64,000 nucleotides of DNA from the human T2T-CHM13v2.0 reference genome, Homo sapiens. The position numbers and the translations under genes were made by a program. Below are positions 1 through 49,369 of this stretch, one piece after another; within the stretch, counting starts at the first letter, position 1, and each line of letters opens with the position of its first letter. Below the pieces are notes generated by a model. It was not told the DNA's origin. It did not search any database and was given only the letters and a program-made list of their open reading frames with translations. The stretch lies in the NCBI GenBank assembly GCA_009914755.4, contig CP086569.2:37728001-37792000 (forward strand), written 5' to 3'.

Positions 1-13
1 GAAGGTTCTCGAA
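1..13. promoter_or_regulatory. Exact match to a trimeric heat-shock element (HSE) consensus, GAAggTTCtcGAA (nGAAnnTTCnnGAAn). It recurs at the start of 15 of the 18 unit starts in the window (3530, 7099, 10673, 14242, 17816, 21380, 24939, 28493, 32062, 35621, 39185, 42719, 46283, 55539).
   Basis: This is a direct match of the motif to the sequence. TTC is rare on this strand, so the motif stands out. Function is not demonstrated. Confidence 0.35.
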
Positions 14-1026
14 AATAATGGAAGCAAATGGAATGGAATTGAATGGAACGGAATAGAGTCGAATGGAATTGAATGGAATGGAATGGACTAGAGTGAAATG
101 GAATCGAACCACAAGGAATGGACAGGAATAGAATGGTCTCGAATTGAATGGAATCGTATGGAATGGCATCAAACGGAATGGAATGGACAGCCACGGAATG
201 GAATGCACTCGAATGCAATGGAGTCGAAACTTATGGACTGGAATAGAATGGACTCGACTGGTACGGACTCCAATGGAATGGAATCGAATGGAAGGGATTC
301 GAACGGAATGGACTCGAAGGGAAAAGACTGCAATGGAAAGGTCTCGAATGGAATGGAAATTAATGGAATGGAATGGAATCGAATGAAATGGAGTCAAAAG
401 GAATGGAATCGAATGGCAAGAAATCAAATGTAATGGAATCGCAAGGAATTGATGTGAACGGAACGGAATGGAATGGAATCCAAAGGAATGGAATAGAATG
501 GAATGGAATCGAATGGAAAGGACTCGAATGGAAATCACTCGAATGGAATGAAATTTAATAAAATAGGATCAAATGTAATTGAATGGAATGGAAAGGAATC
601 GAAACGAAAGGAATGGAGACAGATGGAATGGAATGGAACAGAGAGCAATGGTATAGAATGGAATGGAATCATCTGGAATGGAATTGAATGGAATGGAATA
701 ATATGAAATGGAATGGAATGGAATGGAATGGAATGCCCTTGAATTAAATGGACTGGAATGGAATGGACTCGAACAGAGTGGAATGGAAAGTGTTGAGATA
801 GAATGGAATGGACTCTTTTAGAATGGTCTAGTATGCAATGCAATCGACTGGCAGGGAATCAAAAGGAATGTAATCGAATGGATTGGACTGGAATGCAATG
901 GACTCGAATAGATTGGAAACGGAATGCAAAGGAATGGAATGGAATAGTATGGAATGGAATGGAAAGGAATGGAGTGGAATAGACTAGAGTGGAATGGAAT
1001 GGACTGGAAAGCAATGGACTGGAATG

Positions 1027-1039
1027 GAACTTTCTTGAA
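1027..1039. promoter_or_regulatory. Second exact HSE consensus match per unit, GAActTTCttGAA, at unit offset ~1026 (also 4556..4568 and 8125..8137). It is degenerate in B-type units (ctttcttgGAtgg, for example about 18845) and in U7 and U10 (gGATctttcttgaa).
   Basis: Direct match of the motif to the sequence. Variation in its integrity tracks the unit subtypes. Confidence 0.3.
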
Positions 1040-2834
1040 TGGACTGGAATCAAACGGAATGGAATGCAATGCAATCAAAAGGCATGGAATAAAATAGAAT
1101 GAAAGAGAATCAAATGGAATTGAATCGAATGGAATCGAATGGATTGGAAAGGAATAGAATGGAATGGAATGGAATTGACTCAAATGGAATGGACTAGAAT
1201 GGAATGGATTCGAATGGAAGGCAAAGGAATGGAATCTATTGGAATGGACAGTAATGGAATGGAATGGAAGGGATTGGAATGGACTCGAATGGAATGGACT
1301 GCAATAGAAAGGATTCGAATGGAATGAAAAAGAATTGAATGGAATAGAACAGAATGGAATCAAATCGAATGAAATGGAATGGAATAGAAAGGAATGGAAT
1401 GAAATGGAATGGAAAGGATTCGAATGGAATGCAATCGAATGGAATGGAATCGAACGGAATGGAATAAAATGGAAGAAAACTGGCAAGAAATGGAATCGAA
1501 ATGAATGGAGTGTTATGGAACGGACTCAAAAGGAATTGAATGTAATAGAATGGAGTGGAGTGGACTCGAATATAATGAACTGGAATGGAATGAAATCACA
1601 TGGAATGGGAACGAATGGAATGGAATGGAAAGGAATGGAATCGAATGGAAAGGAATCGAATGGAAGGGAATGAAATTGGATCAACAGGAATGGAAGGGAA
1701 TAGAATAGACGGTAATGGAATGGACTCGAATAGAATGGACACGAATGCTCAAATTGAATGGACTCGAATGGAATGGAAACAAAAGGAATGTCATCGAATG
1801 GAATTGAATCGATTGGAATGAAATCGCATAGAATGGAGTGGAATCAAATGGAATTGAATCGAAAGGAAAGGAAGCGAATGGACTGAAATGAAATGGAATG
1901 GAATTGAATGGAAAGTAATGTAATGGAATAGAATGGAACGAAATTTCACGGAATGGAATCAAACTGAATGGAATCAAATCAATGGAATCAAATCAAATGG
2001 AATGGAAAGGAATTGAATGGAGTAGATTGGATTGGATGGGATTGGAATGAAATGTACTGGAAAGGACTCGAATTTCATGAAACGGAATGGAATGAATTGG
2101 AACGGAATGGACTCGAATGGAATGGAATGTCATGGAATGGCATCAAATGGAATGGAATCGAATGCAATGGAATGCTATGGAATGGAATGGAATGCATTGG
2201 AATGGAATGTCCTCTAATGGAATGGATTCGAGTGGAATGGAATCGAATATAATGGAGTCGAATGAAATGGAATTGAAAGGAATGGGATCGAATACAATGG
2301 AATATACTGGAATGTAATGTAATGAACTCGAATGTAATTGACTGGAATGGAATGTACATGAATGGAATGTAATCGAATGGAAAGTAATCCAACGGAATAG
2401 AATCTAATGCAATAAAATCGACTCAGATAGAGTAGAATGTAATGGAATGGAGTGCAGTGCAATGGAATGGAATGGAATGGAATGCAATGGAATGGAATGG
2501 AATGGAATGGGATGGAATGGTATGGAATGGATAGTAATGGACTGGAATGAAATGGACTGGAAAAGAATGGACTCAAATTGAAAGGGCTCGAAAGGAATGG
2601 AGTCAAATGGAATGGTCTGGAATGGAATGAACACGAATGTAATGCAATCCAATAGAATGGAATCGAATGGCATGGAATATAAAGAAATGGAATCAAAGAG
2701 AATGGAAACAAATGGAATGGAATTGAATGGAATGGAATTGAATGGAATGGGAACGAATGGAGTGAAATTGTATGCAGTAGAAGAGAATAGAATGGAATGC
2801 AAGCGAAAGGAAAGGAATGGATTGCAATGGAATG

Positions 2835-2877
2835 GAATTCATTGGAATGGAAGGGAATGTAGTGTAATGGACAGGCC
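2835..2877. other. The only EcoRI site (GAATTC, 2835..2840) and the only HaeIII site (GGCC, 2874..2877) in the unit, recurring once per ~3.56 kb
   Basis: Context is ggaattcattggaatggaagggaatgtagtgtaatggacaggcctgg. It is present in every complete unit at the same offset. This is consistent with the classical single-cut 3.56-kb restriction ladder of DYZ1. Confidence 0.7.
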
Positions 2878-3529
2878 TGGAATAAAGTGGAATGCTACGG
2901 TCTCGAATGGAATAAAAATGTATGGAATGGAATGCAATGAAATGGAATCGAATGTCATAGAATGTAATGGAATGCAACAAAATGGAATCCAATATCATTG
3001 ACTGGAAAGGCTGGGTGTCGAAAGGAATTGACTCCAATGGAATGGAATCGAATGGAATGGAAGTGAATAGAATCGAACTAAATCGAATGGAATGGAATTG
3101 ATAGGAACGGAATGGAAAGGAATGCAATGATTTGGCATGGAATGGAATCGAATGGCATCGAATGGAATGGAATGGAATGCAATGGAATGGAATGTATTAG
3201 AATGTAATGAACTTTAATGGAATGTACTCGAATGGATTCGACTGGAATGGAATGTTCTGGAAGTGAATGGACTCCAATGGAATGGATTCAAAAGGAATGG
3301 AATCGTACGGAATGGAATCTAATGGAATGGAATTAAATGGAAATGAATCAAATTGAATAGCACGGAATTGAATTGAATGGAATGGAATGCAATGGAATCT
3401 AATGAAACGGAAAGGAAAGGAATGGAATGGAATGGAATGGGCTGGAATGGAAAGGAATCGAAACGAATGGAATGGAATCGAACTGAAGAGACTGGAATGG
3501 AATGCACTGGAATGGAAGGGAGTGTAATG

Positions 3530-6500
3530 GAAGGTTCTCGAAAAAAATGGAATCGAATGGAATGGAATTGAATGGAACGGAATAGAGTCGAATGGAATTG
3601 AATGGAATGGAATGGACTAGAGTGAAATGGAATCGAACCACAAGGAATGGAGAGGAATAGAATGGTCTCGAATTGAATGGAATCGTATGGAATGGCATCA
3701 AACGGAATGGAATGGACAGCCACGGAATGGAATGCACTCGAATGCAATGGAGTCGAAACTAATGGACTGGAATAGAATGGACTCGACTGGTACGGACTCC
3801 AATGGAATGGAATCGAATGGAAGGGAATCGAACGGAATGGACTCGAAGGGAAAAGACTGCAATGGAAAGGTCTCGAATGGAATGGAAATTAATGGAATGG
3901 AATGGAATCGAATGAAATGGAGTCAAAAGGAATGGAATCGAATGGCAAGAAATCGAATGTAATGGAATCGCAAGGAATTGATGTGAACGGAACGGAATGG
4001 AATGGAATCCAAAGGAATGGAATAGAATGGAATGGAATCGAATGGAAAGGACTCGAATGGAAATCACTCGAATAGAATGCAATTTAATAAAATAGGATCA
4101 AATGTAATGGAATGGAATGGAAAGGAATCGAAACGAAAGGAATGGAGACAGATGGATTGGAATAGAACAGAGAGCAATGGTATAGAATGGAATGGAATCA
4201 TCTGGAATGGAATTGAATGGAATGGAATAATATGAAATGGAATGGAATGGAATGGAATGGAATGCCCTTGAATTAAATGGACTGGAATGGAATGGACTCG
4301 AACAGAGTGGAATGGAAAGTGTTGAGATAGAATGGAATGGACTCCTTTGGAATGGTGTAGTATGCAATGCAATCGACTGGCAGGGAATCAAAAGGAATGT
4401 AATCGAATGGATTGGACTGGAATGCAATGGACTCGAATAGATTGCAAACGGGATGCAAAGGAATGGAATGGAATAGTATGGAATGGAATGGAAAGGAATG
4501 GAGTGGAATAGACTAGAGTGGAATGGAATGGACTGGAAAGCAATGGACTGGAATGGAACTTTCTTGAATGGACTGGAATCAAACGGAATGGAATGCAATG
4601 CAATCAAATGGCATGGAATAAAATAGAATGAAAGAGAATCAAATGGAATTGAATCGAATGGAATCGAATGGATTGGAAAGGAATAGAATGGAATGGAATG
4701 GAATGGACTCAAATGGAATGGACTAGAATGGAATGGATTCGAATGGAAGGCAAAGGAATGGAATCTATTGGAATGGACTGTAATGGAATGGAATGGAAGG
4801 GATTGGAATGGACTCAAATAGAATGGACTGCAATAGAAAGGATTCGAATGGAATGAAAAAGAATTGAATGGAATAGAACAGAATGGAATCAAATCGAATG
4901 AAATGGAATGGAATAGAAAGGAATGGAATGAAATGGAATGGAAAGGATTCGAATGGAATGCAATCGAATGGAATGGAATCGAACGGAATGGAATAAAATG
5001 GAAGAAAACTGGCAAGAAATGGAATCGAAATGAATGGAGTGTTATGGAACGGACTCAAAAGGAATTGAATGTAATAGAATGGAGTGGAGTGGACTCGAAT
5101 ATAATGGACTGGAATGGAATGAAATCACATGGAATGGGAACGAATGGAATGGAATGGAAAGGAATGGAATCGAATGGAAAGGAATCGAATGGAAGGGAAT
5201 GAAATTGAATCAACAGGAATGGAAGGGAATAGAATAGACGGTAATGGAATGGACTCGAATAGAATGGACACGAATGCTCAAATTGAATGGACTCGAATGG
5301 AATGGAAACGAAAGGAATGTCATCGAATGGAATTGAATCGATTGGAATGAAATCGCATAGAATGGAGTGGAATCAAATGGAATTGAATCGAAAGGAAAGG
5401 AAGCGAATGGACTGAAATGAAATGGAATGGAATTGAATGGAAAGTAATGCAATGGAATAGAATGGAACGAAATTTCACGGAATGGAATCAAACTGAATGG
5501 AATCAAATCAATGGAATCTAATCAAATGGAATGGAAAGGAATTGAATGGAGTAGATTGGATTGGATGGGATTGGAATGAAATGTACTGGAAAGGACTCGA
5601 ATTTCATGAAACGGAATGGAATGAATTGGAACGGAAGGGACTCGAATGGAATGGAATGTCATGGAATGGCATCAAATGGAATGGCATCAAATGGAATGGA
5701 ATCGAATGCAATGGAATGGTATGGAATGGAATGGAATGCATTGGAATGGAATGTCCTCTAATGGAATGGATTCGAGTGGAATGGAATCGAATATAATGGA
5801 GTCGAATGAAATGGAATTGAAAGGAATGGGATCGAATACAATGGAATATACTGGAATGTAATGTAATGAACTCGAATGTAATTGACTGGAATGGAATGTA
5901 CATGAATGGAATGTAATCGAATGGAAAGTAATCCAATGGAATAGAATCTAATGCAATAAAATCGACTCAGATAGAGTAGCATGTAATGGAATGGAGTGCA
6001 GTGCAATGGAATGGAATGGAATGGAATGCAATGGAATGGAATGGAATGGAATGGAATGGAATGGAATGGGATAATATGGGATGGAATGGTATGGAATGGA
6101 TAGTAATGGACTGGAGTGAAATGGACTGGAAAGGAATGGACTCAAATTGAAAGGGCTCGAAAGGAATGGAGTCAAATGGAATGGTCTGGAATGGAATGAA
6201 CACGAATGTAATGCAATCCAATAGAATGGAATCGAATGGCATGGAATATAAAGAAATGGAATCGGAGAGAATGGAAACAAATGGAATGGAATTTAATGGA
6301 ATGGAATTGAATGGAATGGGAACGAATGGAGTGAAATTGTATGCAGTAGAAGGGAATAGAATGGAATGCAAGCAAAAGGAAAGGAATGGATTGGAATGGA
6401 ATGGAATTCATTGGAATGGAAGGGAATGTAGTGTAATGGACAGGCCTGGAATAAAGTGGAATGCTACGGTCTCGAATGGAATAAAAATGTATGGAATGGA

Positions 6501-7098
6501 ATGCAATGAAATGGAATCGAATGTCATAGAATGTAATGGAATGCAACAAAATGGAATCCAATATCATTGACTGGAAAGGCTGGGTGTCGAAAGGAATTGA
6601 CTCCAATGGAATGGAATCGAATGGAATGGAAGTGAATAGAATCGAACTAAATCGAATGGAATGGAATTGATAGGAACGGAATGGAAAGGAATGCAATGAT
6701 TTGGCATGGAATGGAATCGAATGGCATCGAATGGAATGGAATGGAATGCAATGGAATGGAATGTATTAGAATGTAATGAACTTTAATGGAATGTACTCGA
6801 ATGGATTCGACTGGAATGGAATGTTCTGGAAGTGAATGGACTCCAATGGAATGGATTCAAAAGGAATGGAATCGTACGGAATGGAATCTAATGGAATGGA
6901 ATTAAATGGAAATGAATCAAATTGAATAGCACGGAATTGAATTGAATGGAATGGAATGCAATGGAATCTAATGAAACGGAAAGGAAAGGAATGGAATGGA
7001 ATGGAATGGGCTGGAATGGAAAGGAATCGAAACGAATGGAATGGAATCGAACTGAAGAGACTGGAATGGAATGCACTGGAATGGAAGGGAGTGTAATG
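3530..7098 (+). repeat. HOR unit U2 (3569 bp)
   Basis: Anchor at 3530 and 7099. Artefact ORFs 3627..3962 and 4098..5015 are homologous to those in the other units. Confidence 0.9.
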
Positions 7099-10000
7099 GA
7101 AGGTTCTCGAAAAAAATGGAATCGAATGGAATGGAATTGAATGGAACGGAATAGAGTCGAATGGAATTGAATGGAATGGAATGGACTAGAGTGAAATGGA
7201 ATCGAACCACAAGGAATGGACAGGAATAGAATGGTCTCGAATTGAATGGAATCGTATGGAATGGCATCAAACGGAATGGAATGGACAGCCACGGAATGGA
7301 ATGCACTCGAATGCAATGGAGTCGAAACTAATGGACTGGAATAGAATGGACTCGACTGGTACGGACTCCAATGGAATGGAATCGAATGGAAGGGAATCGA
7401 ACGGAATGGACTCGAAGGGAAAAGACTGCAATGGAAAGGTCTCGAATGGAATGGAAATTAATGGAATGGAATGGAATCGAATGAAATGGAGTCAAAAGGA
7501 ATGGAATCGAATGGCAAGAAATCGAATGTAATGGAATCGCAAGGAATTGATGTGAACGGAACGGAATGGAATGGAATCCAAAGGAATGGAATAGAATGGA
7601 ATGGAATCGAATGGAAAGGACTCGAATGGCAATCACTCGAATAGAATGCAATTTAATAAAATAGGATCAAATGTAATGGAATGGAATGGAAAGGAATCGA
7701 AACGAAAGGAATGGAGACAGATGGAATGGAATGGAACAGAGAGCAATGGTATAGAATGGAATGGAATCATCTGGAATGGAATTGAATGGAATGGAATAAT
7801 ATGAAATGGAATGGAATGGAATGGAATGGAATGCCCTTGAATTAAATGGACTGGAATGGAATGGACTCGAACAGAGTGGAATGGAAAGTGTTGAGATAGA
7901 ATGGAATGGACTCCTTTGGAATGGTCTAGTATGCAATGCAATCGACTGGCAGGGAATCAAAAGGAATGTAATCGAATGGATTGGACTGGAATGCAATGGA
8001 CTCGAATAGATTGGAAACGGGATGCAAAGGAATGGAATGGAATAGTATGGAATGGAATGGAAAGGAATGGAGTGGAATAGACTAGAGTGGAATGGAATGG
8101 ACTGGAAAGCAATGGACTGGAATGGAACTTTCTTGAATGGACTGGAATCAAACGGAATGGGATGCAATGCAATCAAATGGCATGGAATAAAATAGAATGA
8201 AAGAGAATCAAATGGAATTGAATCGAATGGAATCGAATGGATTGGAAAGGAATAGAATGGAATGGAATGGAATGGACTCAAATGGAATGGACTAGAATGG
8301 AATGGATTCGAATGGAAGGCAAAGGAATGGAATCTATTGGAATGGACTGTAATGGAATGGAATGGAAGGGATTGGAATGGACTCAAATAGAATGGACTGC
8401 AATAGAAAGGATTCGAATGGAATGAAAAAGAATTGAATGGAATAGAACAGAATGGAATCAAATCGAATGAAATGGAATGGAATAGAAAGGAATGGAATGA
8501 AATGGAATGGAAAGGATTCGAATGGAATGCAATCGAATGGAATGGAATCGAACGGAATGGAATAAAATGGAAGAAAACTGGCAAGAAATGGAATCGAAAT
8601 GAATGGAGTGTTATGGAACGGACTCAAAAGGAATTGAATGTAATAGAATGGAGTGGAGTGGACTCGAATATAATGGACTGGAATGGAATGAAATCACATG
8701 GAATGGGAACGAATGGAATGGAATGGAAAGGAATGGAATCGAATGGAAAGGAATCGAATGGAAGGGAATGAAATTGAATCAACAGGAATGGAAGGGAATA
8801 GAATAGACGGTAATGGAATGGACTCGAATAGAATGGACACGAATGCTCAAATTGAATGGACTCGAATGGAATGGAAACGAAAGGAATGTCATCGAATGGA
8901 ATTGAATCGATTGCAATGAAATCGCATAGAATGGAGTGGAATCAAATGGAATTGAATCGAAAGGAAAGGAAGCGAATGGACTGAAATGAAATGGAATGGA
9001 ATTGAATGGAAAGTAATGCAATGGAATAGAATGGAACGAAATTTCACGGAATGGAATCAAACTGAATGGAATCAAATCAATGGAATCTAATCAAATGGAA
9101 TGGAAAGGAATTGAATGGAGTAGATTGGATTGGATGGGATTGGAATGAAATGTACTGGAAAGGACTCGAATTTCATGAAACGGAATGGAATGAATTGGAA
9201 CGGAATGGACTCGAATGGAATGGAATGTCATGGAATGGCATCAAATGGAATGGCATCAAATGGAATGGAATCGAATGCAATGGAATGCTATGGAATGGAA
9301 TGGAATGCATTGGAATGGAATGTCCTCTAATGGAATGGATTCGAGTGGAATGGAATCGAATATAATGGAGTCGAATGAAATGGAATTGAAAGGAATGGGA
9401 TCGAATACAATGGAATATACTGGAATGTAATGTAATGAACTCGAATGTAATTGACTGGAATGGAATGTACATGAATGGAAGGTAATCGAATGGAAAGTAA
9501 TCCAATGGAATAGAATCTAATGCAATAAAACCGACTCAGATAGAGTAGAATGTAATGGAATGGAGTGCAGTGCAATGGAATGGAATGGAATTGAATGCAA
9601 TGGAATGGAATGGAATGGAATGGAATGGAATGGAATGGAATGGAAAGGAATGGGATGGAATGGTATGGAATGGATAGTAATGGACTGGAGTGAAATGGAC
9701 TGGAAAGGAATGGACTCAAATTGAAAGGGCTCGAAAGGAATGGAGTCAAATGGAATGGTCTGGAATGGAATGAACACGAATGTAATGCAATCCAATAGAA
9801 TGGAATCGAATGGCATGGAATATAAAGAAATGGATTCGAAGAGAATGGAAACAAATGGAATGGAATTGAATGGAATGGAATTGAATGGAATGGGAACGAA
9901 TGGAGTGAAATTGTATGCAGTAGAAGGGAATAGAAAGGAATGCAAGCGAAAGGAAAGGAATGGATTGTAATGGAATGGAATTCATTGGAATGGAAGGGAA

Positions 10001-10672
10001 TGTAGTGTAATGGACAGGCCTGGAATAAAGTGGAATGCTACGGTCTCGAATGGAATAAAAATGTATGGAATGGAATGCAATGAAATGGAATCGAATGTCA
10101 TAGAATGTAATGGAATGCAACAAAATGGAATCCAATATCATTGACTGGAAAGGCTGGGTGTCGAAAGGAATTGACTCCAATGGAATGGAATCGAATGGAA
10201 TGGAAGTGAATAGAATCGAACTAAATCGAATGGAATGGAATTGATAGGAACGGAATGGAAAGGAATGCAATGATTTGGCATGGAATGGAATCGAATGGCA
10301 TCGAATGGAATGGAATGGAATGCAATGGAATGGAATATATTAGAATGTAATGAACTTTAATGGAATGTACTCGAATGGATTCGACTGGAATGGAATGTTC
10401 TGGAAGTGAATGGACTCCAATGGAATGGATTCAAAAGGAATGGAATCGTACGGAATGGAATCTAATGGAATGGAATTAAATGGAAATGAATCAAATTGAA
10501 TAGCACGGAATTGAATTGAATGGAATGGAATGCAATGGAATCTAATGAAACGGAAAGGAAAGGAATGGAATGGAATGGAATGGGCTGGAATGGAAAGGAA
10601 TCGAAACGAATGGAATGGAATCGAACTGAAGAGACTGGAATGGAATGCACTGGAATGGAAGGGAGTGTAATG
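7099..10672 (+). repeat. HOR unit U3 (3574 bp)
   Basis: Anchor at 7099 and 10673. Confidence 0.9.
9582..9655 (+). repeat. Perfect (GGAAT)n microsatellite-like run inside the unit (approximate coordinates). Its copy number varies between units and is the main source of unit-length variation.
   Basis: The perfect run varies from roughly 4 copies in U1 (about 2480 to 2510) and U12 (about 41683 to 41722) to roughly 11 copies in U3 (9582 to 9655). Confidence 0.75.
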
Positions 10673-13600
10673 GAAGGTTCTCGAAAAAAATGGAATCGAA
10701 TGGAATGGAATTGAATGGAACGGAATAGAGTCGAATGGAATTGAATGGAATGGAATGGACTAGAGTGAAATGGAATCGAACCACAAGGAATGGAGAGGAA
10801 TAGAATGGTCTCGAATTGAATGGAATCGTATGGAATGGCATCAAACGGAATGGAATGGACAGCCACGGAATGGAATGCACTCGAATGCAATGGAGTCGAA
10901 ACTAATGGACTGGAATAGAATGGACTCGACTGGTACGGACTCCAATGGAATGGAATCGAATGGAAGGGAATCGAACGGAATGGACTCGAAGGGAAAAGAC
11001 TGCAATGGAAAGGTCTCGAATGGAATGGAAATTAATGGAATGGAATGGAATCGAATGAAATGGAGTCAAAAGGAATGGAATCGAATGGCAAGAAATCGAA
11101 TGTAATGGAATCGCAAGGAATTGATGTGAACGGAACGGAATGGAATGGAATCCAAAGGAATGGAATAGAATGGAATGGAATCGAATGGAAAGGACTCGAA
11201 TGGAAATCACTCGAATAGAATGCAATTTAATAAAATAGGATCAAATGTAATGGAATGGAATGGAAAGGAATCGAAACGAAAGGAATGGAGACAGATGGAT
11301 TGGAATAGAACAGAGAGCAATGGTATAGAATGGAATGGAATCATCTGGAATGGAATTGAATGGAATGGAATAATATGAAATGGAATGGAATGGAATGGAA
11401 TGGAATGCCCTTGAATTAAATGGACTGGAATGGAATGGACTCGAACAGAGTGGAATGGAAAGTGTTGAGATAGAATGGAATGGACTCCTTTGGAATGGTC
11501 TAGTACGCAATGCAATCGACTGGCAGGGAATCAAAAGGAATGTAATCGAATGGATTGGACTGGAATGCAATGGACTCGAATAGATTGCAAACGGGATGCA
11601 AAGGAATGGAATGGAATAGTATGGAATGGAATGGAAAGGAATGGAGTGGAATAGACTAGAGTGGAATGGAATGGACTGGAAAGCAATGGACTGGAATGGA
11701 ACTTTCTTGAATGGACTGGAATCAAACGGAATGGAATGCAATGCAATCAAATGGCATGGAATAAAATAGAATGAAAGAGAATCAAATGGAATTGAATCGA
11801 ATGGAATCGAATGGATTGGAAAGGAATAGAATGGAATGGAATGGAATGGACTCAAATGGAATGGACTAGAATGGAATGGATTCGAATGGAAGGCAAAGGA
11901 ATGGAATCTATTGGAATGGACTGTAATGGAATGGAATGGAAGGGATTCGAATGGACTCGAATGGAATGGACTGCAATAGAAAGGGTTCGAATGGAATGAA
12001 AAAGAATTGAATGGAATAGAACAGAATGGAATCAAATCGAATGAAATGGAATGGAATAGAAAGGAATGGAATGAAATGGAATGGAAAGGATTCGAATGGA
12101 ATGCAATCGAATGGAATGGAATCGAACGGAATGGAATAAAATGGAAGAAAACTGGCAAGAAATGGAATCGAAATGAATGGAGTGTTATGGAACGGACTCA
12201 AAAGGAATTGAATGTAATAGAATGGAGTGGAGTGGACTCGAATATAATGGACTGGAATGGAATGAAATCACATGGAATGGGAACGAATGGAATGGAATGG
12301 AAAGGAATGGAATCGAATGGAAAGGAATCGAATGGAAGGGAATGAAATTGAATCAACAGGAATGGAAGGGAATAGAATAGACGGTAATGGAATGGACTCG
12401 AATAGAATGGACACGAATGCTCAAATTGAATGGACTCGAATGGAATGGAAACGAAAGGAATGTCATCGAATGGAATTGAATCGATTGGAATGAAATCGCA
12501 TAGAATGGAGTGGAATCAAATGGAATTGAATCGAAAGGAAAGGAAGCGAATGGACTGAAATGAAATGGAATGGAATTGAATGGAAAGTAATGCAATGGAA
12601 TAGAATGGAACGAAATTTCACGGAATGGAATCAAACTGAATGGAATCAAATCAATGGAATCAAATCAAATGGAATGGAAAGGAATTGAATGGAGTAGATT
12701 GGATTGGATGGGATTGGAATGAAATGTACTGGAAAGGACTCGAATTTCATGAAACGGAATGGAATGAATTGGAACGGAATGGACTCGAATGGAATGGAAT
12801 GTCATGGAATGGCATCAAATGGAATGGCATCAAATGGAATGGAATCGAATGCAATGGAATGCTATGGAATGGAATGGAATGCATTGGAATGGAATGTCCT
12901 CTAATGGAATGGATTCGAGTGGAATGGAATCGAATATAATGGAGTCGAACGAAATGGAATTGAAAGGAATGGGATCGAATACAATGGAATATACTGGAAT
13001 GTAATGTAATGAACTCGAATGTAATTGACTGGAATGGAAGGTATATGAATGGAATGTAATCGAATGGAAAGTAATCCAATGGAATAGAATCTAATGCAAT
13101 AAAATCGACTCAGATAGAGTAGCATGTAATGGAATGGAGTGCAGTGCAATGGAATGGAATGGAATGGAATGCAATGGAATGGAATGGAATGGAATGGAAT
13201 GGAATGGAATGGAATGGGATGGGATGGAATGGTATGGAATGGATAGTAATGGACTGGAGTGAAATGGACTGGAAAGGAATGGACTCAAATTGAAAGGGCT
13301 CGAAAGGAATGGAGTCAAATGGAATGGTCTGGAATGGAATGAACACGAATGTAATGCAATCCAATAGAATGGAATCGAATGGCATGGAATATAAAGAAAT
13401 GGAATCGGAGAGAATGGAAACAAATGGAATGGAATTGAATGGAATGGAATTGAATGGAATGGGAACGAATGGAGTGAAATTGTATGCAGTAGAAGGGAAT
13501 AGAATGGAATGCAAGCAAAAGGAAAGGAATGGATTGGAATGGAATGGAATTCATTGGAATGGAAGGGAATGTAGTGTAATGGACAGGCCTGGAATAAAGT

Positions 13601-14241
13601 GCAATGCTACGGTCTCGAATGGAATAAAAATGTATGGAATGGAATGCAATGAAATGGAATCGAATGTCATAGAATGTAATGGAATGCAACAAAATGGAAT
13701 CCAATATCATTGACTGGAAAGGCTGGGTGTCGAAAGGAATTGACTCCAATGGAATGGAATCGAATGGAATGGAAGTGAATAGAATCGAACTAAATGGAAT
13801 GGAATGGAATTGATAGGAACGGAATGGAAAGGAATGCAATGATTTGGCATGGAATGGAATCGAATGGCATCGAATGGAATGGAATGGAATGCAATGGAAT
13901 GGAAGGTATTAGAATGGAATGAACTTTAATGGAATGTACTCGAATGGATTCGACTGGAATGGAATGTTCTGGAAGTGAATGGACTCCAATGGAATGGATT
14001 CAAAAGGAATGGAATCGTACGGAATGGAATCTAATGGAATGGAATTAAATGGAAATGAATCAAATTGAATAGCACGGAATTGAATTGAATGGAATGGAAT
14101 GCAATGGAATCTAATGAAACGGAAAGGAAAGGAATGGAATGGAATGGAATGGGCTGGAATGGAAAGGAATCGAAACGAATGGAATGGAATCGAACTGAAG
14201 AGACTGGAATGGAATGCACTGGAATGGAAGGGAGTGTAATG
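10673..14241 (+). repeat. HOR unit U4 (3569 bp)
   Basis: Anchor at 10673 and 14242. Near-identical to U2. Confidence 0.9.
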
Positions 14242-17200
14242 GAAGGTTCTCGAAAAAAATGGAATCGAATGGAATGGAATTGAATGGAACGGAATAGAGT
14301 CGAATGGAATTGAATGGAATGGAATGGACTAGAGTGAAATGGAATCGAACCACAAGGAATGGACAGGAATAGAATGGTCTCGAATTGAATGGAATCGTAT
14401 GGAATGGCATCAAACGGAATGGAATGGACAGCCACGGAATGGAATGCACTCGAATGCAATGGAGTCGAAACTAATGGACTGGAATAGAATGGACTCGACT
14501 GGTACGGACTCCAATGGAATGGAATCGAATGGAAGGGAATCGAACGGAATGGACTCGAAGGGAAAAGACTGCAATGGAAAGGTCTCGAATGGAATGGAAA
14601 TTAATGGAATGGAATGGAATCGAATGAAATGGAGTCAAAAGGAATGGAATCGAATGGCAAGAAATCGAATGTAATGGAATCGCAAGGAATTGATGTGAAC
14701 GGAACGGAATGGAATGGAATCCAAAGGAATGGAATAGAATGGAATGGAATCGAATGGAAAGGACTCGAATGGCAATCACTCGAATAGAATGCAATTTAAT
14801 AAAATAGGATCAAATGTAATGGAATGGAATGGAAAGGAATCGAAACGAAAGGAATGGAGACAGATGGAATGGAATGGAACAGAGAGCAATGGTATAGAAT
14901 GGAATGGAATCATCTGGAATGGAATTGAATGGAATGGAATAATATGAAATGGAATGGAATGGAATGGAATGGAATGCCCTTGAATTAAATGGACTGGAAT
15001 GGAATGGACTCGAACAGAGTGGAATGGAAAGTGTTGAGATAGAATGGAATGGACTCCTTTGGAATGGTCTAGTATGCAATGCAATCGACTGGCAGGGAAT
15101 CAAAAGGAATGTAATCGAATGGATTGGACTGGAATGCAATGGACTCGAATAGATTGGAAACGGGATGCAAAGGAATGGAATGGAATAGTATGGAATGGAA
15201 TGGAAAGGAATGGAGTGGAATAGACTAGAGTGGAATGGAATGGACTGGAAAGCAATGGACTGGAATGGAACTTTCTTGAATGGACTGGAATCAAACGGAA
15301 TGGGATGCAATGCAATCAAATGGCATGGAATAAAATAGAATGAAAGAGAATCAAATGGAATTGAATCGAATGGAATCGAATGGATTGGAAAGGAATAGAA
15401 TGGAATGGAATGGAATGGACTCAAATGGAATGGACTAGAATGGAATGGATTCGAATGGAAGGCAAAGGAATGGAATCTATTGGAATGGACTGTAATGGAA
15501 TGGAATGGAAGGGATTGGAATGGACTCAAATAGAATGGACTGCAATAGAAAGGATTCGAATGGAATGAAAAAGAATTGAATGGAATAGAACAGAATGGAA
15601 TCAAATCGAATGAAATGGAATGGAATAGAAAGGAATGGAATGAAATGGAATGGAAAGGATTCGAATGGAATGCAATCGAATGGAATGGAATCGAACGGAA
15701 TGGAATAAAATGGAAGAAAACTGGCAAGAAATGGAATCGAAATGAATGGAGTGTTATGGAACGGACTCAAAAGGAATTGAATGTAATAGAATGGAGTGGA
15801 GTGGACTCGAATATAATGGACTGGAATGGAATGAAATCACATGGAATGGGAACGAATGGAATGGAATGGAAAGGAATGGAATCGAATGGAAAGGAATCGA
15901 ATGGAAGGGAATGAAATTGAATCAACAGGAATGGAAGGGAATAGAATAGACGGTAATGGAATGGACTCGAATAGAATGGACACGAATGCTCAAATTGAAT
16001 GGACTCGAATGGAATGGAAACGAAAGGAATGTCATCGAATGGAATTGAATCGATTGCAATGAAATCGCATAGAATGGAGTGGAATCAAATGGAATTGAAT
16101 CGAAAGGAAAGGAAGCGAATGGACTGAAATGAAATGGAATGGAATTGAATGGAAAGTAATGCAATGGAATAGAATGGAACGAAATTTCACGGAATGGAAT
16201 CAAACTGAATGGAATCAAATCAATGGAATCTAATCAAATGGAATGGAAAGGAATTGAATGGAGTAGATTGGATTGGATGGGATTGGAATGAAATGTACTG
16301 GAAAGGACTCGAATTTCATGAAACGGAATGGAATGAATTGGAACGGAATGGACTCGAATGGAATGGAATGTCATGGAATGGCATCAAATGGAATGGCATC
16401 AAATGGAATGGAATCGAATGCAATGGAATGCTATGGAATGGAATGGAATGCATTGGAATGGAATGTCCTCTAATGGAATGGATTCGAGTGGAATGGAATC
16501 GAATATAATGGAGTCGAATGAAATGGAATTGAAAGGAATGGGATCGAATACAATGGAATATACTGGAATGTAATGTAATGAACTCGAATGTAATTGACTG
16601 GAATGGAATGTACATGAATGGAAGGTAATCGAATGGAAAGTAATCCAATGGAATAGAATCTAATGCAATAAAACCGACTCAGATAGAGTAGAATGTAATG
16701 GAATGGAGTGCAGTGCAATGGAATGGAATGGAATTGAATGCAATGGAATGGAATGGAATGGAATGGAATGGAATGGAATGGAATGGAAAGGAATGGGATG
16801 GAATGGTATGGAATGGATAGTAATGGACTGGAGTGAAATGGACTGGAAAGGAATGGACTCAAATTGAAAGGGCTCGAAAGGAATGGTGTCAAATGGAATG
16901 GTCTGGAATGGAATGAACACGAATGTAATGCAGTCCAATAGAATGGAATCGAATGGCATGGAATATAAAGAAATGGATTCGAAGAGAATGGAAACAAATG
17001 GAATGGAATTGAATGGAATGGAATTGAATGGAATGGGAACGAATGGAGTGAAATTGTATGCAGTAGAAGGGAATAGAATGGAATGCAAGCGAAAGGAAAG
17101 GAATGGATTGGAATGGAATGGAATTCATTGGAATGGAAGGGAATGTAGTGTAATGGACAGGCCTGGAATAAAGTGGAATGCTACGGTCTCGAATGGAATA

Positions 17201-17815
17201 AAAATGTATGGAATGGAATGCAATGAAACGGAATCGAATGTCATAGAATGTAATGGAATGCAACAAAATGGAATCCAAAATCATTGACTGGAAAGGCTGG
17301 GTGTCGAAAGGAATTGACTCCAATGGAATGGAATCGAATGGAATGGAAGTGAATAGAATCGAACTAAATCGAATGGAATGGAATTGATAGGAACGGAATG
17401 GAAAGGAATGCAATGATTTGGCATGGAATGGAATCGAATGGCATCGAATGGAATGGAATGGAATGCAATGGAATGGAATGTATTAGAATGTAATGAACTT
17501 TAATGGAATGTACTCGAATGGATTCGACTGGAATGGAATGTTCTGGAAGTGAATGGACTCCAATGGAATGGATTCAAAAGGAATGGAATCGTACGGAATG
17601 GAATCTAATGGAATGGAATTAAATGGAAATGAATCAAATTGAATAGCACGGAATTGAATTGAATGGAATGGAATGCAATGGAATCTAATGAAACGGAAAG
17701 GAAAGGAATGGAATGGAATGGAATGGGCTGGAATGGAAAGGAATCGAAACGAATGGAATGGAATCGAACTGAAGAGACTGGAATGGAATGCACTGGAATG
17801 GAAGGGAGTGTAATG
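14242..17815 (+). repeat. HOR unit U5 (3574 bp)
   Basis: Anchor at 14242 and 17816. Near-identical to U3: the 305-aa artefact ORF 14810..15727 is identical to 7667..8584. Confidence 0.9.
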
Positions 17816-20800
17816 GAAGGTTCTCGAAAATAATGGAATCGAATGGAATGGAATTGAATGGAACGGAATAGAGTCGAATGGAATTGAATGGAATGGAATG
17901 GACTAGAGTGAAATGGAATCGAACCACAAGGAATGGACAGGAATAGAATGGTCTCGAATTGAATGGAATCGTATGGAATGGCATCAAACGGAATGGAATG
18001 GACAGCCACGGAATGGAATGCACTCGAATGCAATGGAGTCGAAACTAATGGACTGGAATAGAATGGACTCGACTGGTACGGACTCCAATGGAATGGAATC
18101 GAATGGAAGGGAATCGAACGGAATGGACTCGAAGGGAAAAGACTGCAATGGAAAGGTCTCGAATGGAATGGAAATTAATGGAATGGAATGGAATCGAATG
18201 AAATGGAGTCAAAAGGAATGGAATCGAATGGCAAGAAATCGAATGTAATGGAATCGCAAGGAATTGATGTGAACGGAACGGAATGGAATGGAATCCAAAG
18301 GAATGGAATAGAATGGAATGGAATCGAATGGAAAGGACTCGAATGGAAATCACTCGAATAGAATGCAATTTAATAAAATAGGATCAAATGTAATGGAATG
18401 GAATGGAAAGGAATCGAAACGAAAGGAATGGAGACAGATGGAATGGAATGGAACAGAGAGCAATGGTATAGAATGGAATGGAATCATCTGGAATGGAATT
18501 GAATGGAATGGAATAATATGAAATGGAATGGAATGGAATGGAATGGAATGCCCTTGAATTAAATGGACTGGAATGGAATGGACTCGAACAGAGTGGAATG
18601 GAAAGTGTTGAGATAGAATGGAATGGACTCCTTTGGAATGGTCTAGTATGCAATGCAATCGACTGTCAGGGAATCAAAAGGAATGTAATCGAATGGATTG
18701 GACTGGAATGCAATGGACTCGAATAGATTGGAAACGGAATGCAAAGGAATGGAATGGAATAGTATGGAATGGAATGGAAAGGAATGGAGTGGAATAGACT
18801 AGAGTGGAATGGAATGGACTGGAAAGCAATGGACTGGAATGGAACTTTCTTGGATGGACTGGAATCAAACGGAATGGAATGCAATGCAATCAAATGGCAT
18901 GGAATAAAATAGAATGAAAGAGAATCAAATGGAATTGAATCGAATGGAATCGAATGGATTGTAAAGGAATAGAATGGAATGGAATGGAATTGACTCAAAT
19001 GGAATGGACTAGAATGGAATGGATTCGAATGGAAGGCAAAGGAATGGAATCTATTGGAATGGACTGTAATGGAATGGAATGGAAGGGATTGGAATGGACT
19101 CGAATGGAATGGACTGCAATAGAAAGGATTCGAATGGAATGAAAAAGAATTGAATGGAATAGAACAGAATGGAATCAAATCGAATGAAATGGAATGGAAT
19201 AGAAAGGAATGGAATGAAATGGAATGGAAAGGATTCGAATGGAATGCAATCGAATGGAATGGAATCGAACGGAATGGAATAAAATGGAAGAAAACTGGCA
19301 AGAAATGGAATCGAAATGAATGGAGTGTTATGGAACGGACTCAAAAGGAATTGAATGTAATAGAATGGAGTGGAGTGGACTCGAATATAATGGACTGGAA
19401 TGGAATGAAATCACATGGAATGGGAACGAATGGAATGGAATGGAAAGGAATGGAATCGAATGGAAAGGAATCGAATGGAAGGGAATGAAATTGAATCAAC
19501 AGGAATGGAAGGGAATAGAATAGACGGTAATGGAATGGACTCGAATAGAATGGACACGAATGCTCAAATTGAATGGATTCGAATGGAATGGAAACGAAAG
19601 GAATGTCATCGAATGGAATTGAATCGATTGGAATGAAATCGCATAGAATGGAGTGGAATCAAATGGAATTGAATCGAAAGGAAAGGAAGCGAATGGACTG
19701 AAATGAAATGGAATGGAATTGAATGGAAAATAATGCAATGGAATAGAATGGAACGAAATTTCACGGAATGGAATCAAACTGAATGGAATCAAATCAATGG
19801 AATCTAATCAAATGGAATGGAAAGGAATTGAATGGAGTAGATTGGATTGGATGGGATTGGAATGAAATGTACTGGAAAGGACTCGAATTTCATGAAACGG
19901 AATGGAATGAATTGGAACGGAATGGACTCGAATGGAATGGAATGTCATGGAATGGCATCGAATGGAATGGCATCAAATGGAATGGAATCGAATGCAATGG
20001 AATGTTATGGAATGGAATGGAATGCATTGGAATGGAATGTCCTCTAATGGAATGGATTCGAGTGGAATGGAATCGAATATAATGGAGTCGAATGAAATGG
20101 AATTGAAAGGAATGGGATCGAATAGAATGGAATATACTGGAATGTAATGTAATGAACACGAATGTAATTGACTGGAATGGAATGTACATGAATGGAAGGT
20201 AATCGAATGGAAAGTAATCCAATGGAATAGAATCTAATGCAATAAAACCGAATCAGATAGAGTAGAATGTAATGGAATGGAGTGCAGTGCAATGGAATGG
20301 AATGGAATTGAATGCAATGGAATGGAATGGAATGGAATGGAATGGAATGGAATGGAATGGAATGGTATGGAATGGATAGTAATGGACTGGAGTGAAATGG
20401 ACTGGAAAGGAATGGACTCAAATTGAAAGGGCTCGAAAGGAATGGAGTCAAATGGAATGGTCTGGAATGGAATGAACACGAATGAAATGCAATCCAATAG
20501 AATGGAATCGAATGGCATGGAATATAAAGAAATGGAATCGAAGAGAATGGAAACAAATGGAATGGAATTGAATGGAATGGAATTGAATGGAATGGGAACG
20601 AATGGAGTGAAATTGTATGCAGTAGAAGGGAATAGAATGGAATGCAAGCGAAAGGAAAGGAATGGATTGGAATGGAATGGAATTCATTGGAATGGAAGGG
20701 AATGTAGTGTAATGGACAGGCCTGGAATAAAGTGGAATGCTACGGTCTCGAATGGAATAAAAATGTATGGAATGGAATGCAATGAAACGGAATCGAATGT

Positions 20801-21379
20801 CATAGAATGTAATGGAATGCAACAAAATGGAATCCAAAATCATTGACTGGAAAGGCTGGGTGTCGAAAGGAATTGACTCCAATGGAATGGAATAGAATGG
20901 AATGGAAGTGAATAGAATCGAACTAAATCGAATGGAATGGAATTGATAGGAACGGAATGGAAAGGAATGCAATGATTTGGCATGGAATGGAATCGAATGG
21001 CATCGAATGGAATGGAATGGAATGGAATGCAATGGAATGGAATGTATTAGAATGTAATGAACTTTAATGGAATGTACTCGAATGGATTCGACTGGAATGG
21101 AATGTTCTGGAAGTGAATGGACTCCAATGGAATGGATTCAAAAGGAATGGAATTGTACGGAATGGAATCTAATGGAATGGAATTAAATGGAAATGAATCA
21201 AATTGAATAGCACGGAATTGAATTGAATGGAATGGAATGCAATGGAATCTAATGAAACGGAAAGGAAAGGAATGGAATGGAATGGAATGGGCTGGAATGG
21301 AAAGGAATCGAAACGAATGGAATGGAATCGAACTGAAGAGACTGGAATGGAATGCACTGGAATGGAAGGGAGTGTAATG
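17816..21379 (+). repeat. HOR unit U6 (3564 bp), B-type (gactgTcagg allele)
   Basis: Anchor at 17816 and 21380. The diagnostic sequence gcaatcgactgtcagg is at about 18655. Confidence 0.9.
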
Positions 21380-24300: not shown

Positions 24301-24938
24301 ATGCTACGGTCTCGAATGGAATAAAAATGTATGGAATGGAATGCAATGAAATGGAATCGAATGTCATAGAATGTAATGGAATGCAACAAAATGGAATCCA
24401 ATATCATTGACTGGAAAGGCTGGGTGTCGAAAGGAATTGACTCCAATGGAATGGAATCGAATGGAATGGAAGTGAATAGAATCGAACTAAATCGAATGGA
24501 ATGGAATTGATAGGAACGGAATGGAAAGGAATGCAATGATTTGGCATGGAATGGAATCGAATGGCATCGAATGGAATGGAATGGAATGCAATGGAATGGA
24601 ATGTATTAGAATGTAATGAACTTTAATGGAATGTACTCGAATGGATTCGACTGGAATGGAATGTTCTGGAAGTGAATGGACTCCAATGGAATGGATTCAA
24701 AAGGAATGGAATCGTACGGAATGGAATCTAATGGAATGGAATTAAATGGAAATGAATCAAATTGAATAGCACGGAATTGAATTGAATGGAATGGAATGCA
24801 ATGGAATCTAATGAAACGGAAAGGAAAGGAATGGAATGGAATGGAATGGGCTGGAATGGAAAGGAATCGAAACGAATGGAATGGAATCGAACTGAAGAGA
24901 CTGGAATGGAATGCACTGGAATGGAAGGGAGTGTAATG
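21380..24938 (+). repeat. HOR unit U7 (3559 bp), A-type variant
   Basis: Anchor at 21380 and 24939. The gactggcagg allele is present, together with private variants (ggatctttcttgaatgg at about 22405). Confidence 0.9.
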
Positions 24939-27900: not shown

Positions 27901-28492
27901 TGAAACGGAATCGAATGTCATAGAATGTAATGGAATGCAACACAATGGAATCCAAAATCATTGACTGGAAAGGCTGGGTGTCGAAAGGAATTGACTCCAA
28001 TGGAATGGAATCGAATGGAATGGAAGTGAATAGAATCGAACTAAATCGAATGGAATGGAATTGATAGGAACGGAATGGAAAGGAATGCAATGATTTGGCA
28101 TGGAATGGAATCGAATGGCATCGAATGGAATGGAATGGAATGCAATGGAATGGAATGTATTAGAATGTAATGAACTTTAATGGAATGTACTCGAATGGAT
28201 TCGACTGGAATGGAATGTTCTGGAAGTGAATGGACTCCAATGGAATGGATTCAAAAGGAATGGAATCGTACGGAATGGAATCTAATGGAATGGAATTAAA
28301 TGGAAATGAATCAAATTGAATAGCACGGAATTGAATTGAATGGAATGGAATGCAATGGAATCTAATGAAACGGAAAGGAAAGGAATGGAATGGAATGGAA
28401 TGGGCTGGAATGGAAAGGAATCGAAACGAATGGAATGGAATCGAACTGAAGAGACTGGAATGGAATGCACTGGAATGGAAGGGAGTGTAATG
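24939..28492 (+). repeat. HOR unit U8 (3554 bp), B-type
   Basis: Anchor at 24939 and 28493. A private stop, ggagatgaatag at about 25060, truncates the MESNH artefact ORF to 91 aa. Confidence 0.9.
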
Positions 28493-49200: not shown

Positions 49201-49364
49201 GCTACGGTCTCGAATGGAATAAAAATGTATGGAATGGAATGCAATGAAACGGAATCGAATGTCATAGAATGTAATGGAATGCAACAAAATGGAATCCAAA
49301 ATCATTGACTGGAAAGGCTGGGTGTCGAAAGGAATTGACTCCAATGGAATGGAATCGAATGGAA
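46283..49364 (+). repeat. HOR unit U14, B-type, truncated at its 3' end by a deletion (about the last 470 bp is missing)
   Basis: Anchor at 46283. Homology to the other units ends at 49359 to 49369, where the sequence jumps to unit offset ~948. Confidence 0.8.
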
Positions 49365-49369
49365 TGGAA
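49359..49369 (+). other. Deletion junction removing about 1.4 kb across a unit boundary, with 11 bp of microhomology (atggaatggaa)
   Basis: The left flank matches unit offset ~3098 (compare 38700 to 38719). The right flank matches unit offset ~948 (compare 47231). The homologous ORF start spacing 48904 to 51032 is 2128 bp instead of ~3564. Confidence 0.8.

What the first reader, a model, noticed from the sequence alone, without database searches (positions are those of the whole stretch)
3530..17815. A 2-unit (~7.14 kb) super-repeat sits on top of the 3.56-kb HOR
Alternate units are more alike than adjacent units. U2 matches U4 and U3 matches U5: the 305-aa artefact ORFs at 7667 and 14810 are identical, and the RGIEW versus TGIEW alleles alternate. 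This points to recent amplification of a two-unit block by unequal crossing-over and shows that the effective repeat period here is ~7.14 kb.
Basis: seen in the sequence. Interest (0 to 1): 0.5.

Follow-up and report, generated by a model that had tools for sequence, protein, structure and literature searches.

The report
Two-unit duplication inside human Y DYZ1 satellite
The window is the well-known human Y-chromosome satellite DYZ1 (3.56-kb units built from GGAAT), and the "7.14-kb super-repeat" is one real but ordinary tandem duplication of two neighbouring units, of the kind unequal exchange makes all the time in such arrays.

Summary
In 3530..17815, alternate units are more alike (99.41% and 99.80%, no indels) than adjacent units (98.97-99.22%, each with a 5-bp indel). 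All 15 informative sites among the four units group H1 with H3 and H2 with H4, and none support another grouping.

There are exactly two copies of a 7,143-bp block, at about 2826..9968 and 9969..17111. They differ by 26 substitutions. The unit to the left and the unit to the right belong to other variant types, so 7.14 kb is not the period of the array. Across the whole window the best period is 3,564 bp.

The same 64 kb holds a cleaner three-unit repeat (17160..42062), another alternate-unit pair (H15 and H17), near-identical neighbouring units, and one unit truncated by a 1,426-bp deletion.

The sequence is human Y DYZ1 / HSat3A6. It has one HaeIII site per unit, published DYZ1 primers hit once per unit, and the published HSat3A6 24-mer is present while those of 12 other subfamilies are absent.

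The most likely mechanism is out-of-register sister-chromatid exchange or a replication-based equivalent, followed by point mutation and short gene conversion. All of this is already described for Yq12. Interest is low.

The parts
1..64000 (+). DYZ1 / HSat3A6 satellite array, read on its GGAAT-rich strand. It holds 18 HaeIII sites, giving 17 HaeIII-to-HaeIII units (H1-H17) plus partial units H0 and H18 at the window ends.
   Evidence: TRF reports a pentamer-derived array across the whole window. GGCC occurs once per unit, with fragments of 3534-3579 bp and one of 2128 bp. Published DYZ1 primers hit once per unit. The HSat3A6 24-mer occurs 34 times and the 24-mers of 12 other subfamilies never. 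GC is 0.38-0.40.
2826..9968 (+). Copy 1 of the 7,143-bp two-unit block. It is essentially H1 (type A, 2874..6442, 3569 bp) plus H2 (type B, 6443..10016, 3574 bp).
   Evidence: Lag-7143 mismatch map, haplotype table and block alignment with 26 substitutions and 0 indels. The left junction is inferred to lie between 2826 and 2943.
9969..17111 (+). Copy 2 of the two-unit block. It is essentially H3 (type A, 10017..13585) plus H4 (type B, 13586..17159).
   Evidence: Same as copy 1. The type A alleles are found only in H1 and H3 and the type B alleles only in H2 and H4. Both sets are absent from the 33 external DYZ1 loci.
6775..9743 (+). A 2,969-bp tract identical to 13918..16886. It is flanked by two clusters of four private substitutions each (6459-6774 and 9744-9968).
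   Evidence: The probability of no mismatch here under a uniform rate is 9e-6.
7667..8584 (-). A 305-aa ORF, identical to the one at 14810..15727(-). It is an artefact of a stop-free pentamer repeat (TTCCA reads FHSIP).
   Evidence: Pfam matches are only low-complexity hits far below cut-off (34 bits against 105).
14810..15727 (-). The second copy of the artefact ORF.
17160..42062 (+). The neighbouring three-unit (about 10.68 kb) repeat, H5 | H6 H7 H8 | H9 H10 H11. It starts where the two-unit block ends.
   Evidence: 17160..31400 against 27837..42062 gives 16 substitutions and 4 gap events, 99.57% identity. The same region gives 98.82% at lag 1 and 98.87% at lag 2. Site patterns supporting period 3 number 29 + 4 + 4, against 2 that contradict it.

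Best explanation
The window is a stretch of the human Y-chromosome long-arm satellite DYZ1 (HSat3A6). Two adjacent 3.57-kb units had each picked up their own private variants, giving type A and type B. This pair was then copied once in tandem as a 7,143-bp block, giving A-B-A-B at about 2826..17111.

The most likely process is an exchange between sister chromatids misaligned by two units. This part of the Y has no homologue to recombine with. A replication template switch would give the same product.

After the duplication the two copies accumulated 26 point differences and a few short conversion-like patches. A 3-kb stretch of the B units is still identical, or was re-homogenised.

What is shown: the two-copy structure, its extent, the shared private variants and the family identity. 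What is inferred: the exchange mechanism, the order of events and the age.
For: Family identity:
- Pentamer array with a 3.56-kb unit.
- One HaeIII site per unit, with fragment sizes of 3564, 3569 and 3574 bp. These match the published 3,564-bp unit and the modal 3,569-bp HaeIII fragment.
- DYZ1 primers A-H from PMC3925983 each hit once per unit. The exception is B, which matches only 2 units within 2 errors.
- The HSat3A6 24-mer from PMC4022460 is present 34 times. The 24-mers of 12 other subfamilies are absent.

Duplication:
- 7,143 bp are in register with 0 indels and 26 substitutions (99.64%). The same region gives 99.11% with four indel events at lag 1.
- Informative sites among H1-H4 split 15:0:0 in favour of the H1+H3 / H2+H4 grouping.
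- About six alleles are private to H1+H3 and about six more, including a 5-bp insertion, to H2+H4. Neither set occurs in any other window unit or in the 33 external DYZ1 loci, while the alternative alleles occur in 15-23 of those loci.
- Most differences between the copies are singletons private to one copy, as expected for mutation after duplication.

Mechanism, from the literature:
- De novo gains or losses of whole DYZ2 units of 2.4-4.8 kb, on average one per Y transmission. The same study reports a Yq12 SNV rate of 3.86e-7 per bp per generation, with 29% of changes looking like gene conversion (PMC12240836).
Against: Divergence inside the block is uneven. There are 0 differences in 2,969 bp, 8 in the 540 bp around it, and 18 in H1-H3 (p = 9e-6 for uniformity). 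One duplication followed by clock-like mutation is therefore not the whole story. Later conversion events, or a second event with different end points, must be added.

Three H1-H3 differences (4357, 4820, 5519) involve alleles that recur in other window units or external loci under the exact 25-mer test. The alignment additionally shows the H1 allele at 4816 in H2 and H4. These point to conversion or recurrent mutation.

Sequence alone cannot separate unequal sister-chromatid exchange from a replication-based duplication or from a 7-kb conversion. The external comparison set is small and mostly made of consensus-like collapsed contigs.
Confidence: 0.8

Rival explanations
1. Long-tract gene conversion. 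The array already had four units here, and about 7 kb of sequence (A-B) overwrote the next two units without changing array length.
For: Gene-conversion-like changes are common in Yq12: 29% of de novo SNVs in one pedigree study and 17% of events in another. The identical 2,969-bp tract inside an otherwise diverged block looks like a conversion tract. Some H1-H3 differences involve alleles shared with other units.
Against: A single tract would have to cover exactly two whole units (7,143 bp) and carry both 5-bp indel states (3569/3574/3569/3574). That is simpler to explain as a duplication. Whole-unit gains and losses are seen directly in pedigrees.
Confidence: 0.1
2. An old dimeric higher-order repeat. 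DYZ1 here has, or once had, a true 7.14-kb period, and the window catches the remnant.
For: HaeIII fragment lengths alternate 3569/3574/3569/3574. A second alternate-unit resemblance (H15 and H17, 7 substitutions, against 20-21 to H16) exists at 51309..62005.
Against: There are only two copies, and H0 and H5 are other types. The whole-window best lag is 3564, and there is no lag-2 advantage in the mean. The A- and B-defining alleles are absent from all other units and from 33 external loci. Elsewhere in the window the block size is 3 units or 1 unit, not 2.
Confidence: 0.05
3. Assembly artefact. The assembler created a false tandem duplication in a hard satellite region.
For: Yq12 is among the hardest regions to assemble, and many Y assemblies carry flagged issues. 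Copy 2 carries about twice as many private alleles as copy 1, and the differences are rich in transversions (14 of 26).
Against: False duplications are normally identical. Here the copies differ at 26 sites spread over the block and share coherent haplotypes. No reads are available to test this further.
Confidence: 0.04
4. Chance. Alternate units look closer only through random variation among units that are about 99% identical.
For: The H1-H3 advantage is modest: 18 differences against 24-31 for adjacent pairs.
Against: Site patterns split 15:0:0, the binomial test gives p = 3e-4, and there are no indels at lag 2 while every lag-1 pair has one.
Confidence: 0.01

Closest known systems
DYZ1 / HSat3A6, the 3.56-kb HaeIII satellite of human Yq12
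   Same: Pentamer GGAAT/TTCCA base, a 3,564-3,574-bp unit, a single HaeIII site per unit, about 38-39% GC, published primers and the subfamily 24-mer all match (literature).
   Different: Nothing found. The window shows no array edge or DYZ2 flank, so its position within Yq12 is unknown.
Tandem duplications and unit gains or losses in Yq12 attributed to unequal exchange (Rhie et al. 2023 preprint; Porubsky et al. 2025, PMC12240836)
   Same: Head-to-tail copying of whole repeat units. Sister-chromatid exchange has been observed in the region, and de novo events of 2.4-4.8 kb, each affecting entire DYZ2 unit(s), have been seen.
   Different: The published examples are either very large (up to 5 Mb, spanning DYZ1 and DYZ2 blocks) or de novo events in DYZ2. 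This is a fixed, somewhat aged, two-unit event in DYZ1.
Local multi-unit duplications and variant-unit domains in alpha-satellite HOR arrays, and Smith's unequal-crossover model of tandem-array evolution (from my own knowledge, not checked in the library)
   Same: Neighbouring units fall into local haplotype domains. Blocks of several HOR units are duplicated, so identity peaks at multiples of the unit length over short distances.
   Different: A different satellite family, on a non-recombining chromosome arm. The blocks here are short (2-3 units, 2-2.3 copies).

Membership tests
DYZ1 / HSat3A6 | Array derived from the pentamer GGAAT/TTCCA | tested here: met
   TRF consensus units are multiples of AATGG across 27..64000.
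DYZ1 / HSat3A6 | Higher-order unit of about 3.56 kb (published values: 3,564 bp, and a modal HaeIII fragment of 3,569 bp) | tested here: met
   The whole-window autocorrelation peaks at 3564, 3574 and 3569. HaeIII fragments are 3534-3579 bp.
DYZ1 / HSat3A6 | One HaeIII (GGCC) site per unit | tested here: met
   There are 18 GGCC sites in 64 kb, exactly one per unit.
DYZ1 / HSat3A6 | Published DYZ1-specific primers anneal in the expected order | tested here: met
   Primers A, C, D, E, F, G and H of PMC3925983 Table 5 hit 17-19 times each, once per unit, with 0-1 errors. Primer B matches only 2 units within 2 errors. The classic 154-bp primer pair, recalled from memory, matches exactly and defines a 154-bp amplicon in every unit. 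I could not confirm that pair in the paper library.
DYZ1 / HSat3A6 | Subfamily-specific 24-mer of Altemose et al. 2014 | tested here: met
   TCGTTTCGATTCCTTTCCATTCCA occurs 34 times on the minus strand. The example 24-mers of 12 other HSat2/3 subfamilies occur 0 times.
DYZ1 / HSat3A6 | Location in Yq12, interspersed with DYZ2 blocks | not testable with these tools
   No human genome collection is available, and the window contains no array edge.
True multi-unit (dimeric) higher-order repeat with a 7.14-kb period | Alternate units more alike than adjacent units | tested here: met
   This holds locally, for H1-H4 only.
True multi-unit (dimeric) higher-order repeat with a 7.14-kb period | The pattern persists over many consecutive copies or across the array | tested here: not met
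   There are two copies only, and H0 and H5 are other types. The window shows no lag-2 advantage overall. The type-defining alleles are absent elsewhere.
Tandem duplication by unequal exchange | Head-to-tail copies in register, with no spacer, whose length is a whole number of units | tested here: met
   The lag is exactly 7143 = 3569 + 3574, with 0 indels over the block.
Tandem duplication by unequal exchange | The copies share derived variants that are absent from other units | tested here: met
   About 12 such variants were found.
Tandem duplication by unequal exchange | A length change relative to an ancestral or related haplotype (reciprocal product) | not testable with these tools
   This needs orthologous Y assemblies or pedigree data.

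The most novel reading that the evidence does not exclude
The uneven divergence inside the block could mean that DYZ1 units two apart keep exchanging sequence in register by long-tract conversion. The pattern is a 2,969-bp identical tract bracketed by tight clusters of private, transversion-rich substitutions. On this reading, small multi-unit domains (2 units here, 3 units next door) would be actively maintained rather than being passive relics of single duplications.
Probability: 0.12. Interest if true: 0.3.

Novelty: already known. Interest (0 to 1): 0.1.

Why it matters
It matters little by itself. It is a clean small-scale example of how Yq12 satellite arrays turn over: blocks of one, two or three units are copied locally, then blurred by mutation and conversion. 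Unit-level haplotype maps like this one could serve as fine markers of Y lineages, or help calibrate exchange rates, but only if compared across assembled Y chromosomes. For the genome scan, the useful result is that the whole window is DYZ1. Its ORFs are artefacts of a stop-free pentamer, and the super-repeat is not a new level of organisation.

Tried and rejected
- TRF cannot see periods above 500 bp, so it reports only the pentamer-derived periods and a 23-bp marker. Autocorrelation and unit alignments were used instead.
- Ungapped lag scans are broken up by 5-bp indels and give a fragmented picture. Gapped alignments replaced them.
- The first alignment treated the long end gaps of the partial units (H0, H14, H18) as informative. 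It was redone with those gaps masked. H0 and H14 distances are still inflated by misalignment and were not used.
- Searching the paper library for the classic 154-bp DYZ1 primer sequences found nothing. Their attribution rests on my memory, so the primers printed in PMC3925983 were used as the documented test.
- The one metagenome scan gave 33 DYZ1-bearing contaminant contigs. The long ones (BNJT/BNJU, 52-55 kb) are noisy long-read assemblies with 33-149 gap events per unit against a window unit (up to 192 between units), so they are useless for comparing lag 1 with lag 2. Only k-mer presence or absence was used.
- A Pfam scan of the 305-aa ORF gave only sub-threshold low-complexity matches, so a coding reading was rejected.
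- Array-wide dimeric periodicity was rejected.
Full report
**What the window is.** The whole 64-kb window is one tandem array built from the pentamer GGAAT. GC is an even 0.38-0.40 with strong G-over-C skew. The best whole-window period is 3,564 bp, followed by 3,574 and 3,569.

GGCC (HaeIII) occurs exactly once per unit. The fragments are 3569, 3574, 3569, 3574, 3559, 3564, 3554, 3564, 3564, 3564, 3534, 3564, 3554, 2128, 3574, 3544 and 3579 bp.

These features match the human Y long-arm satellite DYZ1 (HSat3A6). It has been described as:
- a 3,564-bp HaeIII unit of TTCCA pentamers (PMC3925983);
- a unit of about 3.5 kb with a modal HaeIII fragment of 3,569 bp and 38% GC (Hallast et al. preprint);
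- a nested repeat of about 3.6 kb (Rhie et al. preprint).

I tested membership directly.
- Seven of the eight DYZ1 primers printed in PMC3925983 hit once per unit with 0-1 errors. Primer B matches in only two units within 2 errors.
- The HSat3A6 example 24-mer of Altemose et al. 2014 occurs 34 times. The example 24-mers of twelve other HSat2/3 subfamilies never occur.
- The classic 154-bp Y-specific primer pair, recalled from memory, matches exactly and gives a 154-bp amplicon in every unit. I could not confirm its attribution in the paper library.
- A scan of metagenome contigs with the HaeIII-site 23-mer returned 33 human-contaminant loci carrying it. One short-read unit (L023) aligned to window unit H10 with 21 substitutions and 1 gap event, about 99.4% identity.

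The chromosomal position (Yq12, next to DYZ2) cannot be tested with the tools available.

**Checking the observation.** At lag 7,143 the sequence stays in register without a single indel from 2453 to 13054. Within 3530..17815 this lag gives 99.6% ungapped identity, the best of all lags.

|---|---|---|---|
| U2-U3 | 1 unit | 99.22% | 2 gap events, 5 bases |
| U3-U4 | 1 unit | 98.99% | one 5-bp indel |
| U4-U5 | 1 unit | 98.97% | one 5-bp indel |
| U2-U4 | 2 units | 99.41% | none |
| U3-U5 | 2 units | 99.80% | none |

I cut the array at the HaeIII sites into units H0-H18 and aligned them. The four units H1-H4 have 15 informative sites with the pattern H1=H3 differing from H2=H4. None support either alternative grouping. 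Lag-2 differences are 26 in 7,143 bp against 85 in 10,712 bp at lag 1 (p = 3e-4).

The smaller claims also hold.
- The two 305-aa ORFs are identical. They lie in a mismatch-free tract.
- RGIEW occurs only at 3651 and 10794, while the homologous sites in H0, H2, H4 and H5 read TGIEW.
- The ORFs are artefacts. TTCCA repeats contain no stop codon, and Pfam gives only sub-threshold low-complexity matches.

**What it really is.** The haplotype table sorts the units into local types:

- H0: its own type
- H1 A, H2 B, H3 A, H4 B
- H5 C
- H6 D, H7 C', H8 C''
- H9 D, H10 C', H11 C''
- H12 C'', H13 C, H14 C (truncated)
- H15 E, H16 E', H17 E, H18 E

The A-B pattern therefore has exactly two copies. H0 lacks the B alleles and H5 is a C-type unit.

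The best-fitting block is 2826..9968 against 9969..17111. It is 7,143 bp long, with 26 substitutions and no indel (99.64%). The same region at lag 1 gives 99.11% with four indel events. The junction falls near the HaeIII site, inferred at 2826-2943.

The alleles that define type A occur only in H1 and H3 (positions 3652, 4157, 4164, 4445, 5980, 6374). Those that define type B occur only in H2 and H4 (positions 7630, 8161, 8914, 9531, and a GGAAA insertion at 9642). Neither set appears in any of the 33 external DYZ1 loci, whereas the alternative alleles are present in 15-23 of them.

This is what a single local duplication of two already-distinct neighbouring units predicts. It argues against an old, widespread dimeric subfamily, although the external sample is small and largely consensus-like.

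**Not an array-wide period.** Mean substitution divergence by lag over the window is 0.70% at lag 1, 0.72% at lag 2 and 0.64% at lag 3, so lag 2 has no general advantage.

The two-unit block ends at about 17111. From about there a cleaner three-unit repeat begins. 17160..31400 against 27837..42062 has 16 substitutions and 4 gap events (99.57%; 99.89% counting substitutions only). The same region gives 98.82% at lag 1 and 98.87% at lag 2. Thirty-seven sites support period 3 and two contradict it.

Further along:
- H8 and H12 differ by 3 substitutions, and H11 and H12 by 3 substitutions plus 3 indels.
- H15 and H17 differ by 7 substitutions, while H16 differs from both by 20-21.
- H14 lacks 1,426 bp, with the deletion junction at about 49358/49359.

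The window is a patchwork of small local copying events with block sizes of one, two and three units.

**Fine structure of the two-unit block.** Differences between the copies are unevenly spread.
- There are none in 6775..9743 (2,969 bp).
- There are four in 6459-6774 and four in 9744-9968.
- There are 18 in H1 against H3, mostly in 4805-6294.

A uniform rate would leave the 2,969-bp tract clean with probability 9e-6.

All eight H2-H4 differences are singletons private to one unit, as are about two-thirds of the H1-H3 differences. This is as expected for new mutations after copying. Three H1-H3 differences (4357, 4820, 5519) involve alleles that recur in other window units or external loci under the exact 25-mer test. 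In the alignment the H1 allele at 4816 is also carried by H2 and H4. These suggest short conversion events or recurrent mutation. Fourteen of the 26 differences are transversions, and only three are CpG transitions.

**Mechanism.** Yq12 lies in the male-specific part of the Y, so any exchange must be between sister chromatids or within one chromatid. An exchange between sisters misaligned by two units yields exactly this product. A replication template switch would yield it too. This step is inferred, not shown.

The literature supports it.
- Porubsky et al. 2025 report de novo structural changes of 2,416-4,839 bp, each affecting entire DYZ2 unit(s), on average one per Y transmission. They also report a Yq12 SNV rate of 3.86e-7 per bp per generation, with 29% of changes matching non-orthologous sites, which suggests interlocus gene conversion.
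- A 2026 preprint reports similar proportions.

Using that rate as a rough clock, 26/7,143 differences correspond to about 4,700 generations. The three-unit repeat (16/14,200) corresponds to about 1,500 generations. These figures are crude inferences that ignore conversion and rate heterogeneity. They do show that 'recent' is relative.

**Rivals.**
- A 7-kb gene conversion that overwrote two pre-existing units cannot be excluded from one haplotype. It is less economical, because it must cover exactly two whole units and both indel states.
- An old dimeric HOR is contradicted inside the window.
- An assembly artefact is unlikely, because the copies differ at 26 coherent sites. No reads were available to check this.
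- Chance is excluded by the site patterns.

**Comparison with what is known, and verdict.** This is a member of DYZ1/HSat3A6 on every feature I could test. The two-unit duplication is an ordinary instance of the unequal-exchange dynamics already described for Yq12 and for satellite arrays in general. It does not meet the definition of a true higher level of repeat, because it does not persist beyond two copies.

Interest: low, about 0.1.

The only mildly open point is the uneven divergence within the block. It may reflect later in-register conversion between units two apart.

Noticed in passing
window 17160..42062: A three-unit (about 10.68 kb) repeat, H5 | H6 H7 H8 | H9 H10 H11, that is cleaner than the two-unit one. 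It has 16 substitutions and 4 gap events over 14.2 kb at lag 3, against about 98.8% identity at lags 1 and 2. H7 and H10 have no substitution difference at all. It begins about where the two-unit block ends.
   Followed up: partly
window 49181..51308 (junction about 49358/49359): Unit H14 is only 2,128 bp long. It lacks 1,426 bp, corresponding to positions 179-1604 of the preceding unit, and is otherwise near-identical to H13.
   Followed up: partly
window 51309..64000: The last units form a separate variant domain (type E, with a 15-bp insertion GGAAGGGAATCGAAC and many shared substitutions). H15 and H17 differ by 7 substitutions while H16 differs from both by 20-21. This is a second alternate-unit resemblance, at lag 7118.
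   Followed up: partly
window 6459..6774 and 9744..9968 (and their partners 7143 bp downstream): All eight H2-H4 differences sit in two tight clusters flanking a 2,969-bp identical tract. Six of the eight are transversions, and six of the private alleles are on the downstream copy. This could reflect conversion, local hypermutability or base-level assembly error. It is unresolved.
   Followed up: partly
window 38529..42062 (H11, around 41711): H11 carries a private deletion of about 25-30 bp of pentamer repeats relative to H8 and H12. This accounts for its 3,534-bp length.
   Followed up: no
loci L004, L005, L013, L021, L027 (contigs BNJT01001888.1, BNJU01004413.1, BNJU01001848.1): Public metagenome assemblies contain 52-55-kb contigs of human Y DYZ1, which is host contamination from male donors. 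They are noisy long-read sequence, with 33-149 gap events per 3.5-kb unit against a window unit.
   Followed up: partly
window-wide, minus strand (e.g. 4098..5015, 7667..8584, 11241..12158, 14810..15727, 21948..22865): A 305-aa ORF recurs in some but not all units of 1..22000 (five ORFs of at least 250 aa there, none in H5), because TTCCA repeats have no stop codon in that frame (FHSIP-like peptide). Pfam shows only sub-threshold Extensin and pentapeptide low-complexity matches.
   Followed up: yes
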